A program made the position numbers and the translations under genes. The notes under the pieces were generated by a model. It ran no database searches. It had not been told where the DNA came from and worked only from the letters and a program-made list of their open reading frames with translations. A DNA stretch of 64,000 nucleotides from a virus: the IMG/VR virus record IMGVR_UViG_3300027734_000038. One strand, 5' to 3'. Numbering within the stretch: position 1 is the first letter of the stretch; every line of letters starts with the position of its first letter. Shown here one piece after another: positions 15,898 through 61,223 of the stretch.

Positions 15898-16491
15898 ATG
15901 AACCTAGATGATGTAAAGAAATATAAATGTGAAAATGAAAATTTATACGAGAATCCAATACTAGCATCAAGTATTAATCTATTACTAGATTTACCTGATG
16001 TTGTTTGTCGGATTCAAGGAACAAAATATGATTCTGCTCACGGTGAAATATTGACATCTGTGGGTAACGAATATTCAAATGTATTAACTTTGCCTGGTGC
16101 AGAACAATTGATGATATGGATTACTTCAAGAATTCAAGAATCTGCACCACCAGGTAAATCAGTAGATTATATAAAATCTTGGGCTAATAAGATGTTTTAT
16201 GGCAGTCAAGGTTTGGTCCATGCACATACACATCCAGATTTTAAAAATTCTGAGTCGGATTTTGTTGCAATATTTTATGTCCACATTCCCGAAAATAGTG
16301 GTCAATTAGTTTTTATTGATGGTGGTGAGTTTAATAAGAAGTATACTGAATATGATGAATCCAAAATGACAATTATGCAATGTGAATCTGGTGACCTAGT
16401 AATACACCCTCCTACAATTCCCCATGCAGTAACAGTTCATAATAGTCATGTACCTAGATTGTGTTTGGTGTTTGAGGGAATATATAAATAG
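15898..16491 (+). CDS. putative 2OG-Fe(II) oxygenase (TIGR02466-like)
   Basis: SWAN, HAHTHP, AIFYV, GDLVIHP..IPHAV....RLCLVF. Confidence 0.75.
   Translation: MNLDDVKKYKCENENLYENPILASSINLLLDLPDVVCRIQGTKYDSAHGEILTSVGNEYSNVLTLPGAEQLMIWITSRIQESAPPGKSVDYIKSWANKMFYGSQGLVHAHTHPDFKNSESDFVAIFYVHIPENSGQLVFIDGGEFNKKYTEYDESKMTIMQCESGDLVIHPPTIPHAVTVHNSHVPRLCLVFEGIYK
16483..16490 (+). promoter_or_regulatory. T4-type late promoter
   Basis: exact TATAAATA 30 nt upstream of the Cys-rich gene. Confidence 0.7.
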
Positions 16492-16519
16492 TCAATATAT
16501 TTGAAAAAAAGAGATTAAA

Positions 16520-16918
16520 ATGACATTACCTTCTTCTGGACCATTAACAATTAATGATGTGAATATCGAAACCGGCCGTGGTTCAGGTACGGCAACTGGC
16601 CTTGATTGGATACGAGATAATACAAAAGATAATGCCACAGCACTAGGTCAATTATATGATAGGGCTTATTATCAAAGAAATGTTGATGGCAACTGTAATA
16701 ATGGAAACTGCACTTCCAATTGTAATTGTGGTAATATTCAATGTAATAATTGTTTGATTGCTGCTACTGTAAACTGTACCAATTGTGATGCACAATCTTG
16801 GTTACAAGGAAACTGTAACTGTGCTTGTACCTATAATTGCACAACATCAGAAACCTCATACAATTGTAACTGCGCTTGTGCTTGTGCCTGTTTCGTTTGC
16901 GCTTGTGCTTGCTGGTAA
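16520..16918 (+). CDS. Cys-rich protein; candidate RiPP-like precursor/substrate of adjacent radical SAM enzyme
   Basis: 58-aa Cys-free N-terminus then 20 Cys in 74 aa, ending CNCACACACFVCACACW. Confidence 0.8.
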   Translation: MTLPSSGPLTINDVNIETGRGSGTATGLDWIRDNTKDNATALGQLYDRAYYQRNVDGNCNNGNCTSNCNCGNIQCNNCLIAATVNCTNCDAQSWLQGNCNCACTYNCTTSETSYNCNCACACACFVCACACW

Positions 16919-16942
16919 TTATTTTATAAAATTAGGATTAAT

Positions 16943-18385
16943 ATGATATTTGAAATTTTGGCTGAAAAAATTGGCGGCGACAAGGCCACATTTTATTATG
17001 ATAACGAATTTAATATTCTCAAAGACTCCAATGGAAATGTATTTGAATATCCAGAAGAAAAGAGAATGAAACAGGACAAACAACCTGTAGTTCCGTTTGA
17101 CAAAAACTCTCCACTTAAAAAATCCAAAGCAATTAAATTACTAAAGATTCAGTTAGGTCTCTCTTGTAATTATTCCTGTGATTATTGTTCTCAAAAATTT
17201 GTTGAAAGAGCACCAGAAACCAGTAAAAAAGATATTGATGATTTCTTGACCAAGTTTGATAAAATGGAATTTAGTGAAGAAAAAGGTCTAAAGATTGAAT
17301 TTTGGGGTGGTGAACCATTTGTTTATTGGAAAACATTAAAACCTTTGGCAGAAGCTTTGCGTGAGAAATTTAGCCATTGGCAAAAAGAACCGGTATTTTC
17401 TGTTATCACCAATGGTTCTATTCTTAATAAAGAAATCTGTGCTTGGTTGTATTACATGGGATTTCAAGTGTCTATTTCACACGATGGTCCAGGTCAAGCA
17501 GTTCGTGGTCCAGATCCATTTGATGATCCAGACCAAAAGAAAATTATTCTCGACTTCTATAAGATTATGAATAAGCAGAAAAGAATTAGTTTTAATTCTA
17601 TGATGAATAATAAAAATAGAAGTCGTAAAGAAGTTCATGATTGGTTTATCAAACTCACCGGTGATCCTAATGTTCCTTTGGGTGAAGGCACCATTGTTGA
17701 TGCATACGATGAAGATGGCCTAACAAATTCATTAGATTCATATCAGGATCATTTTGAATATCGTAAACTGGCTTTCAATGACATTCATGCAAACAACGGC
17801 AACATTGGTTTTGGTATGATTATATCTAAGATTGATGAGTTCACAACTAATGTATTATCACATTCTGAATCTAAATATTTGGGTCAAAAATGTGGCATGG
17901 ATGATGTTGATGTCATGGCAGTTGACTTGCGTGGTAATGTAATGACTTGTCAGAATGTGAGTCCATTAGAAATAGCCAAGAATGGTGAAAGTCATTTTGG
18001 CGGCACATTAGATAACATTGATGATATCGAAATCAAATCAGCCACACATTGGATGAATCGTGCTGATTGTGCAAGTTGTCCTGTATTGCACATCTGTAAA
18101 GGTTCATGTATGTTCCTCGATGATAAGTATTGGGAAACATCATGTAATAATGCTTACTCTGATGCTGTTGCTTTGTTTGCTTTGTCATTCCAAAAAATGA
18201 CAGGTTATGTACCTGTTCTAATTAAGAATGATAGATTACCAAAGGATCGTCAAGATATTTGGGGAACAATGTTGCAACACCAAGAAAAAACTAAAAGAAA
18301 AATTATTCCAATCAAAGTGATTTCGGAAGTAGTGGGTAAAATTGATGAAATTGAAGTTTATGGTAAATCTAAAGTAGAGGCATAA
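16943..18385 (+). CDS. radical SAM enzyme with SPASM domain
   Basis: CNYSCDYC (CxxxCxxC), WGGEP, ITNG, ISHDG; SPASM KCG...VMTC and CASCPVLHICKGSC...C. Confidence 0.92.
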   Translation: MIFEILAEKIGGDKATFYYDNEFNILKDSNGNVFEYPEEKRMKQDKQPVVPFDKNSPLKKSKAIKLLKIQLGLSCNYSCDYCSQKFVERAPETSKKDIDDFLTKFDKMEFSEEKGLKIEFWGGEPFVYWKTLKPLAEALREKFSHWQKEPVFSVITNGSILNKEICAWLYYMGFQVSISHDGPGQAVRGPDPFDDPDQKKIILDFYKIMNKQKRISFNSMMNNKNRSRKEVHDWFIKLTGDPNVPLGEGTIVDAYDEDGLTNSLDSYQDHFEYRKLAFNDIHANNGNIGFGMIISKIDEFTTNVLSHSESKYLGQKCGMDDVDVMAVDLRGNVMTCQNVSPLEIAKNGESHFGGTLDNIDDIEIKSATHWMNRADCASCPVLHICKGSCMFLDDKYWETSCNNAYSDAVALFALSFQKMTGYVPVLIKNDRLPKDRQDIWGTMLQHQEKTKRKIIPIKVISEVVGKIDEIEVYGKSKVEA

Positions 18386-19060
18386 ATGTCGTTAACTATA
18401 TCACCACAATTACAAAAAGCACTAGAGATAGCTTCATCTATTGATGAGGTTATTTCTGTTCAGGCTATCGAACCACCACAAAACATACTAGACCAAATCG
18501 AAAATAAAGATAGTGTGTATTTGGATTTTGTAATTCAAACCAAATCTGGTGAAATGCCTTTTGCTATTGTAGTACCAAAAGTTTTAGTTGATGATGTTGA
18601 TGATTCACTACATATTCCTATTAAAGATTTGTTATCATGCGGTTGCACTCAGGTTGAAGATGGTATTGGTCATATGTGTGGTTATAGTGTATTTGATAAC
18701 ATTGGTAAAATGACATATTATGTTCGTGAGTCCGACCAATACTTGGTAAAACTAATTGATGCCGAAGCACCTTCTATTTTTGAACAAACAGAAAATTTAA
18801 AGAAGTTAATAACAAAACTTGAATCGGTAGATGGTGTAAAACGAATTGTTATTGAAGAAATTGTTGATGATAGTCTAAAACAAAGTTTAGAAGCAGAACG
18901 ACCAGTAATTGTCAAAGCATATATTGATGTTAATAGTGATAAAATTATTGACCATTTTGTTTCATTTGCTGTAACAGAATTAGTTTATGATATTGAAACT
19001 AGTCATGAGTGGGCTGTAAATAATCTTATGGATATGATTGAAAAAAATAATGCACAATGA
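18386..19060 (+). CDS. acidic hypothetical protein in rSAM cluster
   Basis: starts immediately after rSAM stop; SCGC...HMCG motif. Confidence 0.75.
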   Translation: MSLTISPQLQKALEIASSIDEVISVQAIEPPQNILDQIENKDSVYLDFVIQTKSGEMPFAIVVPKVLVDDVDDSLHIPIKDLLSCGCTQVEDGIGHMCGYSVFDNIGKMTYYVRESDQYLVKLIDAEAPSIFEQTENLKKLITKLESVDGVKRIVIEEIVDDSLKQSLEAERPVIVKAYIDVNSDKIIDHFVSFAVTELVYDIETSHEWAVNNLMDMIEKNNAQ

Positions 19061-19583
19061 GAAAATATTATTTGGTACACCGGTTTGGATTCACGATTTA
19101 GATATATCAAATAGTAAACTGGAAGAAGAAGGTCGACCATATAAAACTGGTAACTACTTTGACCTCAATACACCAGAAATCAACAAATTAAAATACACAG
19201 TAAAATCTTACTGTGACCAAATAGCCGAACAATATCATTGGAATAAAAAAGCCACTTATATTGTTGGTCGGCAAAATCCAATATTTCCAGGAGAAAATGA
19301 TACGCCCCATGGTCATCACCATGCAATGATGGTTGCCGTCTATTATCTTCAAGTGCCAGAAAAATCAGGTGACATCATATTGAACGATCCTCGTGGTATG
19401 GTATTTTGGGTTGATCCACAAGTTGTCAATGATGGACCACATAAGAGTTGTCGGTCATATCATCGTATCACACCAAAACCAGGAATGTTGTTGATGTTCC
19501 CAAATTATTTAATTCACTCCGTTGAAACCAATATGAGTAATGAAATGAGATTGTCTATTATGATGGAAATTTATAATCTATGA
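19050..19583 (+). CDS. putative 2OG-Fe(II) oxygenase (TIGR02466-like)
   Basis: LFGTPVW, PHGH, VAVYY, DPRG, FPNYLIHSVETN....RLSI. Confidence 0.85.
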   Translation: MHNEKILFGTPVWIHDLDISNSKLEEEGRPYKTGNYFDLNTPEINKLKYTVKSYCDQIAEQYHWNKKATYIVGRQNPIFPGENDTPHGHHHAMMVAVYYLQVPEKSGDIILNDPRGMVFWVDPQVVNDGPHKSCRSYHRITPKPGMLLMFPNYLIHSVETNMSNEMRLSIMMEIYNL

Positions 19584-20116
19584 GTAGAATCAATTTATTT
19601 TCCACACCTGTTTGGACAATAAAGTTAAATGATGATGAATTAAATTCTAACTTATTTTCAATTGCAGGCAACTATAAAGTTGGCACCGATTATTTTGAAC
19701 AGAATAACGAGTCGGTGTTACAATTAAAAAGTCAAATTCAATCCGCTCTATCTGATGTGGCAACAGAATGTGGTTTCTCTACCAATTTTAAATTTACTGG
19801 TCGTCAGAACCCAATGATGCCAGGAAAAAACAATTCACCACACCATCATCCTGATTGTAAGTTAGTTGCTGTGTATTATGTTAAGGTGCCAGAAAAATCA
19901 GGAGATATTTTACTACATGACCCAAGAGGTTCTATATTGTGGTCAGACCCACAAGCAAGAACTGATGTTGCTTGGGAATCACACAGACCTTACCATAAGA
20001 TTACACCGACACCAGGTACATTATTAATATTTCCTGGTTATGTAATACATTCGGTTGAAACAAATCTAAGTAATGAAATCAGAATATCAATTGCAATATC
20101 TACGAGGTTCGAATGA
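19580..20116 (+). CDS. putative 2OG-Fe(II) oxygenase (TIGR02466-like), paralog of upstream gene
   Basis: LFSTPVW, PHHHP, VAVYY, DPRG, FPGYVIHSVETN....RISI. Confidence 0.85.
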   Translation: MSRINLFSTPVWTIKLNDDELNSNLFSIAGNYKVGTDYFEQNNESVLQLKSQIQSALSDVATECGFSTNFKFTGRQNPMMPGKNNSPHHHPDCKLVAVYYVKVPEKSGDILLHDPRGSILWSDPQARTDVAWESHRPYHKITPTPGTLLIFPGYVIHSVETNLSNEIRISIAISTRFE

Positions 20117-21258
20117 AATATACAATTTTAGGTGGCGGCACAGCAGGTTGGTTGACCGCACTATTTGTTAATAAACATTATCCAAACGATGATGTTACTG
20201 TAATAGCCAGTTCCGAAATTGGAATATTAGGTGCAGGTGAAGGCACCACTCCACACTTTATAAATTTTCTTAATCAGTTGGGTATCGATGAAAAAGATAT
20301 CTATGAAAACTGTAAGGCAACCATTAAAACAGGAATTAAATTCACTAATTGGAATGGCGAAGGTGATGAATACTATCACAACTTTAACTGTATAGGTCCT
20401 GATTTACACGCTTTGCATTTTGATGCCAGTTTATTGGCCAAATACTTTCAATCGTTGGCTATCTCCCGTGGTGTGAAACTAATTGATGATGAAGTGGTAG
20501 ATATAAAGTGTAAAGAGAATAAAGATGTGGAAAGTTTTATTCTGAAGTCTGGTAATGTGGAACATACCGATTTTGTTTTTGATTGTTCTGGATTTAGGAG
20601 ATTAATTATCGGAGGGCTTTACAAATCAGAATGGATAGAGTATAATATGCCTTGTAGGAGGGCAATACCATTCTTTTTACCGAATGATAATACCAATCTG
20701 CCTCAGTATACCGAATCAGTTGCAATGAAGTATGGATGGATATGGAAGATTCCTGTTCAAGGTCGATATGGTTGTGGTTATGTGTTTGATTGCACAAAGA
20801 CTACAGATGAAGAAGCCAAACAAGAGATAAGAGATTATCTCGGACACGATTTTGTATCACCCAAGACATTCAACTTTAATGCTGGTTCTTATAAAGATGT
20901 TTGGATTAACAATTGTTTAGGTGTAGGTTTATCTTCTGGTTTTATTGAACCACTAGAAGCTACATCAATATGGATTCAGATTATAACATTGAATACTTTT
21001 ATTGAATGTGATGGCAATAAAGAAAAATTGAACCACGACATGAAAGAAATGAATGAAGATATTTTAGGTTTCTTATACTATCATTACATGACAAAAAGAA
21101 CTGATAGTAAATTTTGGTCAGAGTTTCAAAAAGATAATAAGATGCCTGAAAAATTAAAAATGAGATTAGAAAATAAGTTGATTACAAATAATTTTAGTAT
21201 GTTTACCGAAGAAAGTTGGCAGACAATTAAAGAAGGAATAAATTATGTTAATTCCTAA
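20113..21258 (+). CDS. flavin-dependent halogenase, tryptophan halogenase family (shortened)
   Basis: GGGTAG, GAGEGT, ATIKTGIKF (catalytic Lys region), DCSGF, WIWKIP, FIEPLEATSI. Confidence 0.9.
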   Translation: MKYTILGGGTAGWLTALFVNKHYPNDDVTVIASSEIGILGAGEGTTPHFINFLNQLGIDEKDIYENCKATIKTGIKFTNWNGEGDEYYHNFNCIGPDLHALHFDASLLAKYFQSLAISRGVKLIDDEVVDIKCKENKDVESFILKSGNVEHTDFVFDCSGFRRLIIGGLYKSEWIEYNMPCRRAIPFFLPNDNTNLPQYTESVAMKYGWIWKIPVQGRYGCGYVFDCTKTTDEEAKQEIRDYLGHDFVSPKTFNFNAGSYKDVWINNCLGVGLSSGFIEPLEATSIWIQIITLNTFIECDGNKEKLNHDMKEMNEDILGFLYYHYMTKRTDSKFWSEFQKDNKMPEKLKMRLENKLITNNFSMFTEESWQTIKEGINYVNS

Positions 21259-21859
21259 ATGCATTGATGGTAAGTTTGAAATAATTGATGTGCTTGATCC
21301 TTGGGATTGCATTAATAATAAGTTGCTTTGGGATATAGGTTCAGTTGATAAAAATTTGATTGATTGGTTTAATATGCAAAAAATTAAACCAAAAACTGTG
21401 TTAGAATTAGGATGTGGTTCGGGAATCAATTCTATTTGGTTATCCAAACAAGGTTGTGATGTTACTGCGATAGATTTTCATGATTCAGCTTTATCAAAAA
21501 CAAAACAAATATCAGAAGAAAATAAAATAAAAATTGATTTATTAAAAATAGACTTGATTAAAGAAAAATGGCCAAAAAAAAAGTTTGATTTTATTTTTGA
21601 CCGAGGTTGTTTTCATATCTTTAATGAATTAGAATGTGAAATTTATACCTCTAAATTGATTGAGTGTTTGACATCTAGTGGAGTTTGGTTAAGTTTGATT
21701 GGAAGTAAAGAACAGTTTGAATGGTTTTGGTCGGCAACAAAAATAATCAATATGGTTGAGCCAAAATTAAAAATTTTAAGTTTAAACAAAACAACACTAG
21801 AAACAATAGATGGCCATGATGTGAAAGCGTGGGCACTATTAACCAAAAGAAAAATATAA
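21245..21859 (+). CDS. class I SAM-dependent methyltransferase (TPMT/TehB-like)
   Basis: VLELGCGSG, VTAIDF, FDFIFDRGCFH. Confidence 0.88.
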   Translation: MLIPKCIDGKFEIIDVLDPWDCINNKLLWDIGSVDKNLIDWFNMQKIKPKTVLELGCGSGINSIWLSKQGCDVTAIDFHDSALSKTKQISEENKIKIDLLKIDLIKEKWPKKKFDFIFDRGCFHIFNELECEIYTSKLIECLTSSGVWLSLIGSKEQFEWFWSATKIINMVEPKLKILSLNKTTLETIDGHDVKAWALLTKRKI

Positions 21860-53029: not shown

Positions 53030-53251
53030 ATGGCAATTGTAAAAATACCTGGCACAACTTATGTAAGGGATACAAATACTATGGCTCTTATTAACACCGA
53101 TGTTGCTGGATTAGAAGATTATAGAATGAAATCGACTCTGATTAATAACCAAAAATCAGAAATAAATAAAGTAAAAAATGAAATCAATGAAATCCGAGGT
53201 GATGTAAAAGTTATCAAAGAATTATTGATGCAATTATCTGGAAAACAATAA
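53030..53251 (+). CDS. small coiled-coil virion-associated protein
   Basis: YVRDTNTMALINTD...heptad C-terminus; ATG 2 nt after previous stop. Confidence 0.7.
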   Translation: MAIVKIPGTTYVRDTNTMALINTDVAGLEDYRMKSTLINNQKSEINKVKNEINEIRGDVKVIKELLMQLSGKQ

Positions 53252-54714
53252 TGGCTAATACAGTTTCTTATCTAAGTTTTGCTAATACATTTGGTGATTG
53301 GGTCGTTGTAACGAATTCTCTGGCACGAGAGAGTAACGACTTTGCGGCCAATAATTATGTTAAGCCAACAGGTACACTCTTTTTAAATTCACCTTCATTA
53401 GGCTTACAAGTAGCAAATAATGCCATTGTTGCTGGTCAATTACAGGTACAAGGTACTGGTTCTGGTGCTTATGTTCAAAACAACTTGCGAGTTGATGGCC
53501 AAGTTACTTTTCAAAATACTACATTAGGATTAACCAATACTGGTGATATGGTAGTAGGTGGTAGTTTATCTGTTGGTGGAAACTTTATTATTACAGGTAG
53601 TACCATCAATAGTTCTAATAGTTTTACATTAAATGCAAATAATATTGTTGGTAGTAATACAACATTCAATGTGTATCGTGGTTCATCTGGTGCCAATGCT
53701 TCTATTTTATGGAACGAAAGTGTTGACCAATGGCAAATTTTAAATCTTACAGATTCAACATACTATAAGATTTTAACAACTAGTGATGTAACATCGTCAT
53801 TATTATCTACAAGTTCTAATACAGCGGCTTCAGCATCAGCAGCTAATACATTGAACACTTCAATTGCAACACAAAATATTGCATTGCAGAGCATTATTAC
53901 TACTGCAAACACTTCTATGAAGTCGTATGTAGATAATGCCAACACATCCATGAAATCTTATGTGGATTCCAATTTTGGTTTAATTTCTGGCATTAATGCA
54001 ACACAGAACTCATCAATCATTATTGCACAAGGTGTAGATAATACTCAAAATACACAGATTTCTGGTATTCAAGGTGTGGATGACACACAAAATACTCGCA
54101 TGAGTATCATTGAAGGTGTGAATGTCACTCAAAACACTAATATTACTTCTGTTAATAACTTTGCTGGTGGTGCTTATACAACTGCTAATGGTGCAAATGG
54201 TCTGGCCGCAGGTGCTTTTGCAGCTGCTAACACCAAAGTCGCTTCAATTACTGGTACAACCAATCAGGTTACTGTAACCGGCACAACTACACCAACATTA
54301 TCTTTACCGCAAAGTATTAATACTGGTGCATCCGTTCAGTTTGGTTCATTTGGCGTAGGTACAGCTGCATCCGGCACAACTGGTGAAATCCGTGCTACCA
54401 ATAACATTACTGCTTACTACTCAGATGATAGACTTAAAACCAAATTAGGCAATATTGAGAGTGCATTAGATAAAGTGTTGTCATTAAATGGTTTCTACCA
54501 TGAAGCCAATGAAACAGCACAAGCATTAGGTTATCAAGTAGTTCGTGAGGTCGGTGTGTCAGCACAAGAGGTCAATGCAGTTCTACCAGAGGTTGTGGCG
54601 CCTGCACCAATTGATCCTCAGTATATGACAGTTCGGTATGAAAGATTAGTTCCTTTGTTAATTGAAGCAATCAAGGAATTGAAGTCGGAGATAGATGGTT
54701 TGAAGAAATCCTAA
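53251..54714 (+). CDS. tail fibre with C-terminal intramolecular chaperone (peptidase S74)
   Basis: AYYSDDRLK, GVSAQEV..VLPEVV, VRYERLVPLLIEAIKEL. Confidence 0.88.
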   Translation: MANTVSYLSFANTFGDWVVVTNSLARESNDFAANNYVKPTGTLFLNSPSLGLQVANNAIVAGQLQVQGTGSGAYVQNNLRVDGQVTFQNTTLGLTNTGDMVVGGSLSVGGNFIITGSTINSSNSFTLNANNIVGSNTTFNVYRGSSGANASILWNESVDQWQILNLTDSTYYKILTTSDVTSSLLSTSSNTAASASAANTLNTSIATQNIALQSIITTANTSMKSYVDNANTSMKSYVDSNFGLISGINATQNSSIIIAQGVDNTQNTQISGIQGVDDTQNTRMSIIEGVNVTQNTNITSVNNFAGGAYTTANGANGLAAGAFAAANTKVASITGTTNQVTVTGTTTPTLSLPQSINTGASVQFGSFGVGTAASGTTGEIRATNNITAYYSDDRLKTKLGNIESALDKVLSLNGFYHEANETAQALGYQVVREVGVSAQEVNAVLPEVVAPAPIDPQYMTVRYERLVPLLIEAIKELKSEIDGLKKS

Positions 54715-60647: not shown

Positions 60648-61223
60648 ATGAGAGGTGAATGGTGTTATTTTGGGAAGTATTTTACTCCCGAGCAGTGCAG
60701 TAGAATATTAGAAAATGGATTAAAAATACCGGCACAAGACGCCAAGTTAGGCGTTGCCGGTATGAATGATTATAGTAATGATTCGTTCCGCAAATCCAAA
60801 ATCCGTTTTATTCAATCTGATAACCCCGATTTTAAGTGGCTCTTTGATGAGTTATTAAAAATGGGTATGCAGGCCAATAAAGATTGGTTCAATTTTCATA
60901 TTACCAATCTATCATATATTCAATTAGCCGAATACGATGAATCATATCAAGGTGAATACAAGAAACACCATGATGTGTTTTGGGTAAACAATGATAGTTA
61001 CCATCGTAAACTTACCTGTGTAATTCAACTTACAGACCCATCAGAGTATGAGGGTGGTGACCTAGAGTTGTTTGAACTATCTGAATATCCAAACAAAGAC
61101 GAACTACGCCAGCAAGGCACAGCAATCTTCTTCCCGTCTTTTATTCCACATCAAGCACATCCAGTAACAAAAGGTAAACGATATAGTATTGCAGTATGGT
61201 TTGAAGGAGATAAGTGGAAATGA
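60648..61223 (+). CDS. 2OG-Fe(II) oxygenase, prolyl-4-hydroxylase/PKHD-like
   Basis: HHD (HxD), RKLTCVIQL, YEGGDL, FPSFIPHQAHPVTKGKRYS. Confidence 0.88.
   Translation: MRGEWCYFGKYFTPEQCSRILENGLKIPAQDAKLGVAGMNDYSNDSFRKSKIRFIQSDNPDFKWLFDELLKMGMQANKDWFNFHITNLSYIQLAEYDESYQGEYKKHHDVFWVNNDSYHRKLTCVIQLTDPSEYEGGDLELFELSEYPNKDELRQQGTAIFFPSFIPHQAHPVTKGKRYSIAVWFEGDKWK

What the first reader, a model, noticed from the sequence alone, without database searches (positions are those of the whole stretch)
16483..21859. Phage-encoded RiPP-like modification operon: Cys-rich substrate, radical SAM/SPASM, oxygenases, halogenase, methyltransferase
Seen: seven co-directional genes, six of them abutting or overlapping (18385/18386, 19050/19060, ATGA at 19580 and 20113, 14-nt overlap at 21245). 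The first is a 132-aa protein with a Cys-free 58-aa N-terminus and a 74-aa C-terminus holding 20 Cys. It is followed by a CxxxCxxC + SPASM enzyme, an unknown protein, two TIGR02466-like oxygenases, a Trp-halogenase-family enzyme and a SAM methyltransferase. Established: SPASM radical SAM enzymes next to Cys-rich leader-core peptides install thioether crosslinks (sactipeptides, ranthipeptides), and halogenases, 2OG oxygenases and methyltransferases are common RiPP tailoring enzymes. Inference: this is a complete peptide/protein maturation pathway carried by a lytic T4-like phage, inserted among core replication genes. I know of no characterised example.
Basis: partly seen in the sequence, partly recalled or inferred. 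Interest (0 to 1): 0.95.

Follow-up and report, generated by a model that had tools for sequence, protein, structure and literature searches.

The report
Enzyme cassette maturing phage fibre tip
This freshwater phage carries a widespread set of enzymes that most likely cross-link, and in this lineage also halogenate and hydroxylate, a small cysteine-rich protein at the tip of its tail fibre, a kind of virus-particle chemistry I could not find described in any paper.

Summary
All coordinates and motifs check out, but the substrate is probably not a leader-core peptide. The 132-aa protein has a folded N-terminal module shared with gp38-type adhesins and sits behind a T4 late promoter. In relatives it is fused to tail-fibre S74 chaperones or Hint domains. 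The rSAM/SPASM family pairs with a C-terminal (Asn/Ala/Asp-Cys)n tract in 117 of 121 clusters, often on bona fide tail fibres. An rSAM-blind search for NCNCNCNC-stop found the enzyme in 36 of 36 assessable loci. The halogenase belongs to a dedicated clade always found with this rSAM and a Trp-ended substrate. The 2OG oxygenases, including 15898-16491, and the 224-aa gene are co-inherited. The methyltransferase is a passenger: no homologue in 659 loci, and deleted in a near-identical population. Best model: late-stage RiPP-like maturation of a virion fibre-tip protein, probably Cys-to-Asn thioethers plus Trp halogenation; the chemistry is inferred, not shown. This scan already reported the rSAM plus NCNC fibre-tip pairing on other DNA. 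New here are the halogenase-Trp link, the gp38-type module and the exclusion of the methyltransferase.

The parts
15898..16491 (+).
   Evidence: close homologues in 26 of 27 halogenase-bearing rSAM loci vs 4 of 140 without
16483..16490 (+). T4-type late promoter TATAAATA, ending 29 nt before the substrate ATG
   Evidence: Core ATAAATA lies 21-50 nt upstream of 46/89 substrate genes vs 25/926 other ORFs. In this genome it precedes ORFs I read from their sequence as sheath, tube and scaffold, plus the tail-tube cap and fibre-like genes
16520..16918 (+). 132-aa Cys-rich substrate, probable small fibre-tip/adhesin-type virion protein, ending in Trp
   Evidence: homologues are fused to Peptidase_S74, Hint or a CSKIIC domain directly after the Cys tract
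16520..16675 (+). Residues 1-52: folded three-helix N-terminal module shared with gp38-type Gly-rich adhesins; probably not a RiPP leader
   Evidence: AF2 pLDDT about 85. A Cys-free profile retrieves PF05268/PF21722 proteins at E 2e-5 to 9e-5, which match phrog_2056 'tail fiber; host specificity'
16694..16915 (+). Residues 59-132: Asn/Cys-rich tract ending in alternating x-Cys repeats and a terminal Trp; presumed modification site
16943..18385 (+). Radical SAM/SPASM maturase: C75/C79/C82 plus seven SPASM Cys (317, 336, 376, 379, 385, 389, 401)
   Evidence: 2910 relatives at E<=1e-30; phrog_1802
18386..19060 (+). 224-aa accessory protein, tandem duplication of a ~100-aa alpha/beta domain; probable chaperone or substrate presenter (inferred)
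   Evidence: Mutually exclusive with two other accessory types across 411 loci. No convincing fold match
19050..19583 (+). 2OG-Fe(II) oxygenase (PF13759), probable tailoring hydroxylase
   Evidence: 31 of the 39 newly fetched loci at E<1e-20 carry the rSAM
19580..20116 (+). 2OG-Fe(II) oxygenase (TIGR02466/PF13759), probable tailoring hydroxylase
20113..21258 (+). Flavin-dependent Trp-halogenase-family enzyme, 381 aa. Keeps GxGxxG, the catalytic Lys, WxWxIP and EPLE, but lacks about 50 residues of the PrnA 105-157 insert; probably acts on the substrate's terminal Trp
21245..21859 (+). Class I SAM methyltransferase; passenger gene, NOT part of the conserved cassette
   Evidence: No homologue in 659 loci; missing from loci with 91-94% identical rSAMs; contig in run X7 joins 21286 to 21844; GC 0.28
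53251..54714 (+). S74-chaperone tail fibre; candidate docking partner of the substrate (inference only)
   Evidence: PHROG tail-fibre hits; 63% identical over 128 aa to the fibre abutting the substrate gene in L068; an S74 fibre abuts the cassette in 10/55 clusters

Best explanation
A late-expressed cassette that matures a virion fibre-tip protein in RiPP-like fashion. (1) The 132-aa protein is made late and joins the tail-fibre apparatus through its N-terminal module. It is either a gp38-like cap on an S74-processed fibre or a very short fibre of its own. Structural homology and promoter are shown; virion location is inferred. (2) The rSAM/SPASM enzyme recognises the C-terminal x-Cys tract without a leader. 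It most likely binds a substrate thiol at an open auxiliary-cluster site and abstracts a beta-H from Asn (or Ala/Asp) to form Cys-S-C(beta) thioethers; in an alternating NCNC run every Asn has a Cys at i+3, the NxxC spacing. The pairing is shown; the chemistry is inferred (about 50%). (3) The 224-aa protein acts as chaperone or presenter (inferred). (4) In this clade a dedicated halogenase modifies the terminal Trp, and 2OG oxygenases hydroxylate tract residues, probably Asn/Asp; co-inheritance is shown, the reactions are inferred. The product would be a rigid, chemically decorated tip for receptor or metal binding. The methyltransferase is not involved.
For: Forward linkage: tract partner in 117/121 rSAM clusters with >=3 kb flank. 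Reverse, rSAM-blind: 36/36 loci with an NCNCNCNC-ended ORF and >=3 kb downstream carry this rSAM family; five non-coding pattern matches do not. Partners in distant clades are tail fibres by PHROG. Cultured phages JWF and RSP15 have the rSAM in the tail module, behind fibres with NCxC-type ends. Direct homologues carry S74 or Hint right after the tract; S74 is the auto-cleaved fibre chaperone (PMC7917993). The N-module is shared with GP38-domain proteins. Late promoter enrichment 52% vs 2.7%. Seven SPASM Cys, as in protein-cross-linking CrpC (PMC13692751); best PDB sequence hits include 5WGG (CteB from my own knowledge). NxxcB accepts Asn, Ala, Gln and Asp (PMC9389541), the alphabet seen before Cys here (the search pattern favoured Asn/Asp). 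Halogenase clade of 37 rows (SH-aLRT 96): 35 sit with the rSAM and 2 are truncated; all 33 with a visible substrate have Trp at or near the tract end; 41 outside clusters have no rSAM.
Against: No biochemical or proteomic data. No maturase model passes its cut-off (best PapB 80 vs 340), so the reaction type is open. The Cys tract is unmodelled (pLDDT 30-45). In this genome the cassette is 30 kb from the fibre genes. The halogenase/Trp association rests on only 2-4 changes on the rSAM tree and is not significant by independent pairs. Trp-ended S74 forms L438 and L440 lack a halogenase, and Trp before the S74 cut may be a junction relic. Loci are not independent samples. 2OG genes are common in T4-like phages; this genome has another at 60648. 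S74 fusion implies a trimer while gp38 is a cap, so the architecture is unresolved.
Confidence: 0.68

Rival explanations
1. Same virion substrate, different chemistry: the x-Cys tract is a metal or Fe-S binding ladder (like His-x-His iron sites in fibre needles), and the rSAM loads or remodels it, oxidises Cys, or makes C-C rather than thioether links.
For: CxC repeats on a three-fold axis could bind metal (own knowledge of T4 gp37). Cys far outnumber plausible acceptors near the end of the tract. Anaerobic sulfatase maturase and cyclophane-synthase models also hit weakly.
Against: Seven rather than eight SPASM Cys fits thiol-binding thioether synthases (PMC13692751). The strong Asn/Ala/Asp bias next to Cys fits a beta-carbon acceptor.
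Confidence: 0.17
2. One reading: a leader-core RiPP precursor whose released core acts as a free peptide (host takeover, anti-competitor or metal scavenging).
For: Small size, Cys-free N-terminus, and several typical RiPP tailoring enzyme families in one operon, away from the tail genes.
Against: The N-terminus is a folded adhesin-type module. The same tract is on 300-680 aa tail fibres with unrelated N-termini. S74/Hint fusions and the late promoter point to the virion. No protease or exporter recurs among neighbours. No PqqD/RRE model hit.
Confidence: 0.08
3. The rSAM-tract pair is real, but the halogenase and oxygenases are ordinary T4-like morons acting on small molecules or capsule, linked only by descent.
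For: Cyanophage clusters of halogenase, 2OG oxygenases and methyltransferases are described as secondary-metabolite or capsule systems (PMC7824862). Few independent changes on the tree. Most rSAM clusters lack a halogenase.
Against: The halogenase clade never appears without the rSAM and a Trp-ended substrate, although the cassette sits in varied genomic contexts. 2OG genes also flank the rSAM in 18/37 long-fibre clusters and in non-T4 tail modules such as L443.
Confidence: 0.25

Closest known systems
NxxcB/NxxcA, PapB/PapA, CteB/CteA (ranthipeptide rSAM/SPASM maturases)
   Same: rSAM + SPASM enzyme next to a Cys-rich substrate; Asn/Asp acceptors at short spacing (PMC9389541); PapB is the best NCBIfam hit, 5WGG among the best PDB hits
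   Different: Far below every cut-off; no shared leader; substrate is a phage structural-type protein with the motif at its C-terminus
CrpC/CrpA of Methanococcus voltae (TIGR04463) and QhpD/QhpC
   Same: Seven-Cys SPASM enzyme installing thioethers in a protein rather than a peptide, with an accessory partner (PMC13692751); QhpG-like flavin partner hit weakly
   Different: TIGR04463 scores 39 vs cut-off 525; cellular rather than viral; CrpC uses an RRE; the paper does not mention phages
gp37/gp38 tips of T2-like phages (S16)
   Same: S74-processed fibre plus small adhesin with N-terminal attachment domain (PMC7917993); the N-module here is shared with PF05268-bearing proteins; L059 holds both a Gly-rich and the Cys domain
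   Different: Cys tract replaces the polyglycine domain; no structural match to solved gp38 was reported; some homologues carry their own S74; gp38 needs no modifying enzyme
Flavin-dependent halogenases PrnA, BrvH, VirX1 (cyanophage Syn10), MibH
   Same: Fold and catalytic motifs; VirX1 is viral with an open active site (PMC8407142); MibH halogenates peptide Trp (own knowledge)
   Different: Dedicated clade tied to a Trp-ended protein; the window enzyme lacks the PrnA 105-157 insert; the table in PMC8407142 lists no biosynthetic product for VirX1

Membership tests
Ranthipeptide/sactipeptide RiPP | rSAM with CxxxCxxC and a SPASM domain | tested here: met
   PF04055 and TIGR04085 above cut-off; ten conserved Cys
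Ranthipeptide/sactipeptide RiPP | Cys-rich substrate co-encoded and co-inherited | tested here: met
   117/121 forward, 36/36 reverse
Ranthipeptide/sactipeptide RiPP | Conserved cleavable leader on a short precursor | tested here: not met
   N-termini are unrelated across the family; here a folded adhesin-type module
Ranthipeptide/sactipeptide RiPP | RRE domain on or beside the maturase | tested here: inconclusive
   No PqqD hit; N-terminal extension about 58 aa does not align with maturase models; the rSAM was not folded
Ranthipeptide/sactipeptide RiPP | Thioether cross-links in the product | not testable with these tools
   Needs MS
Named maturase families (PapB NF047865, CcpM TIGR04068, TIGR04463, SCIFF TIGR03974) | Score above curated cut-off | tested here: not met
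   80/340, 66/500, 39/525, 51/425
gp38-type adhesin | Polyglycine receptor-binding domain (PF05268) | tested here: not met
   No Pfam hit for the 132-aa protein
gp38-type adhesin | N-terminal attachment domain | tested here: inconclusive
   Sequence homology to the N-module of PF05268 proteins; weak BFVD hits to Gp38-domain proteins at E 2-3; no solved-structure match
gp38-type adhesin | Present at the fibre tip of the virion | not testable with these tools
   Needs virion proteomics or cryo-EM
Flavin-dependent halogenase | GxGxxG, catalytic Lys, WxWxIP, FxEPLE motifs | tested here: met
Flavin-dependent halogenase | Halogenation activity and substrate | not testable with these tools
   Needs assay

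The most novel reading that the evidence does not exclude
A large group of freshwater phages build their host-recognition tip as a multiply modified protein: leaderless rSAM thioether staples along an Asn-Cys ladder, hydroxylated residues and a halogenated C-terminal Trp. This would make a halogenated virion protein the natural product of one clade of phage halogenases.
Probability: 0.33. Interest if true: 0.93.

Novelty: new variant of a known kind. Interest (0 to 1): 0.82.

Why it matters
Phage receptor-binding proteins are assumed to be plain polypeptides folded by chaperones. If hundreds of phage lineages cross-link and decorate their fibre tips enzymatically, host recognition, virion stability and recombinant work on such fibres need rethinking. 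It would also give a testable natural substrate for phage halogenases and PF13759 oxygenases, long listed as auxiliary genes of unknown purpose. A leader-independent rSAM that reads a short C-terminal tag would be a useful protein-stapling tool. Cultured carriers exist (JWF, 2-1, RSP15), so the core claim can be tested now.

Tried and rejected
Homotrimer prediction of the 132-aa protein: no answer, score 0.01; not used as evidence either way. Fold searches of its monomer model: nothing in PDB or VIA; BFVD hits to gp38-domain proteins too weak alone. tblastn of the substrate against cultured phages: no match. ESM Atlas: uninformative for the N-module and the 224-aa protein. The 224-aa model has best VIA Z 5.3, so no family assigned; it is not homologous to the other accessory family (hhalign probability 0.2%). 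Independent-pairs test of halogenase vs terminal Trp: too few events to be significant. 'Trp always brings a halogenase' rejected (L438, L440, L234). Four 'halogenase without Trp' cases are divergent flavoproteins lacking WxWxIP; L154 remains a true exception. Methyltransferase as pathway member rejected. Two RNA runs hold short contigs over the rSAM and neighbours, but contigs cannot show transcription. Sigma-70 scan at chance level. Ten literature searches found no paper on rSAM maturation of virion proteins (among them); the library lacks most subscription journals.
Full report
Observation. The rSAM passes PF04055 and the SPASM model TIGR04085 but no named maturase model (best PapB, 80 vs 340 bits). 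The two oxygenases are PF13759, the halogenase is PF04820 at 312 bits, and the last gene is a class I methyltransferase. The genome held is a 108-kb T4-like contig, probably partial, and the stretch occurs in freshwater metagenomes.

The enzyme is part of a large family: 2910 relatives at E<=1e-30 and 400 clusters at 50% identity. It occurs in viral contigs and in genomes and MAGs of Limnohabitans, Polynucleobacter, Burkholderia and Alphaproteobacteria, often in prophage-like tail modules. In cultured phages JWF and RSP15 it lies in the tail module. JWF gp028 is a fibre with an NCNCDCNC run followed by a Hint domain, and RSP15 ORF048 ends in a short NCQC motif.

Forward test: 117 of 121 rSAM clusters (85% identity, at least 3 kb flank) have a protein with an x-Cys tract at its end or just before an S74, Hint or CSKIIC domain. 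In distant clades these are 300-680 aa proteins matching PHROG tail-fibre families. Reverse test without the enzyme as query: a DNA pattern for NCNCNCNC-stop gave 53 viral loci. All 36 with a real ORF and at least 3 kb downstream carry this rSAM family; five non-coding matches do not. Several of these loci are near-identical, so the counts overstate independence. The carriers have unrelated N-termini, so the shared signal is the C-terminal tract, not a leader.

The 132-aa protein looks like a virion part. Many direct homologues continue into Peptidase_S74 right after the last Cys, the auto-cleaved chaperone of fibre tips (PMC7917993). Others continue into Hint or a 170-aa CSKIIC domain. Residues 1-50 fold confidently into three short helices. 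A profile of this Cys-free part retrieves Gly-rich GP38-domain proteins, and L059 combines the module, a Gly-rich domain and the Cys tract in one chain. An S74 fibre gene abuts the cassette in 10 of 55 clusters, and in L448 the order is large baseplate-type protein, S74 fibre, substrate, rSAM. The late-promoter core lies upstream of 46/89 substrate genes against 25/926 other ORFs, and in this genome it marks structural genes. I took the promoter lead from note e1-5632181 and tested it. Homology to the solved S16 gp38 attachment domain was not shown, and it is open whether the protein is a cap or a short trimer.

Chemistry is inferred. The SPASM domain has seven conserved Cys, the pattern that leaves an open iron in the protein-cross-linking enzyme CrpC (PMC13692751). 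The residue before Cys in the tracts is mostly Asn, then Ala and Asp (the pattern was biased to Asn/Asp). NxxcB makes a Cys-Asn beta-thioether and tolerates Ala, Gln and Asp (PMC9389541), and an alternating NCNC run is itself an NxxC motif. I put thioether formation at about 50%, with metal loading or another radical reaction as the main alternative.

The other genes differ in status. The 224-aa protein is a tandem repeat of a ~100-aa domain, sometimes split into two genes. It, a second accessory family and the fused CSKIIC domain never co-occur (74, 137 and 146 loci), which suggests one chaperone-like role filled three ways. 2OG oxygenases lie within 2.5 kb of the rSAM in 70 of 117 clusters. 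Of the 39 newly fetched loci with close homologues, 31 carry the rSAM; several of the rest are truncated and at least two are true exceptions. The upstream 2OG gene at 15898 tracks the halogenase (26/27 vs 4/140).

The halogenase keeps all catalytic motifs and lacks about 50 residues of the PrnA insert. Motif-complete halogenases coincide with a Trp-ended substrate in 16 clusters, with one exception each way among 129. A search from the halogenase side, seeded with cassette halogenases, shows a 37-row clade. In it 35 rows sit with the rSAM, two are truncated, and all 33 visible substrates have Trp at or near the tract end, whether free or released by S74. Forty-one outside clusters have no rSAM. 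This is one clade and only 2-4 changes on the rSAM tree, so it shows co-inheritance, not co-evolution by test. Trp-ended substrates without a halogenase exist. I rate Trp halogenation of the substrate at about 55-60% given a virion substrate.

The methyltransferase is a passenger. It has no homologue in 659 loci and none in cultured phages. It is missing where the rSAM is 91-94% identical, and a contig of a near-identical population joins 21286 to 21844. Close relatives instead often carry a B12-type rSAM between the 15898 homologue and the substrate, which this genome lacks.

Comparison. The system works like ranthipeptide or CrpC-type protein thioether maturation but fails the leader criterion and every family cut-off, so I do not file it as a ranthipeptide. 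No paper found describes it. This scan has reported the rSAM plus Cys-ladder fibre tip on other genomes several times; I reached the same reading before looking, and those notes are not counted as support. The halogenase-Trp link, the gp38-type module and the three exclusive accessory types were not in the notes returned. Verdict: real, widespread and undescribed in the literature searched; a new variant of RiPP-like protein maturation, applied to a virion protein; interest 0.82.

Noticed in passing
L010:6028-7548 and many relatives: A ~500-aa B12-binding-type radical SAM gene sits in or beside the cassette in many relatives but is absent from this window; possibly a C-methylating tailoring enzyme.
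   Followed up: partly
L019:2856-3758 and 146 loci: A ~170-aa domain starting with CSKIIC follows the Cys tract, with no Pfam, PHROG or NCBIfam match. It stands where S74 or Hint stand in other homologues, so it may be an undescribed self-cleaving chaperone.
   Followed up: partly
L018:4378-5819, L022:4641-5420: CSKIIC-type loci carry fatty-acid-desaturase-like (PF00487) and Asp/Asn beta-hydroxylase-like (PF05118) genes beside the rSAM instead of a halogenase.
   Followed up: no
L068:10495-11682, L177, L331: A divergent flavoprotein clade lacking the halogenase motifs sits at the halogenase position in loci whose substrate ends in NCNC with no Trp.
   Followed up: partly
L437:10928-12403, L444:10406-11881: Halogenase-clade members that have lost WxWxIP; L437 and L601 carry two tandem halogenase-family genes.
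   Followed up: no
L009:2978-9242 (Ralstonia jumbo phage RP12): Three rSAM genes follow a 65-aa ORF ending in an NCNCAC tract that is not among the annotated features, next to virion structural genes; the next gene looked heme-oxygenase-like from memory.
   Followed up: partly
L330, L333, L341, L343, L354: Tandem arrays of 80-170 aa proteins, each ending in NCNCNC, served by one rSAM.
   Followed up: no
genome G000 C1:63543-87563 (begins at window 63543): A long array of some 30 small fibre-like and collagen-like genes, far more than in T4.
   Followed up: no
L093:8682-9629: A TRAP-transporter solute-binding protein (DctP) recurs beside the rSAM in ten clusters.
   Followed up: no
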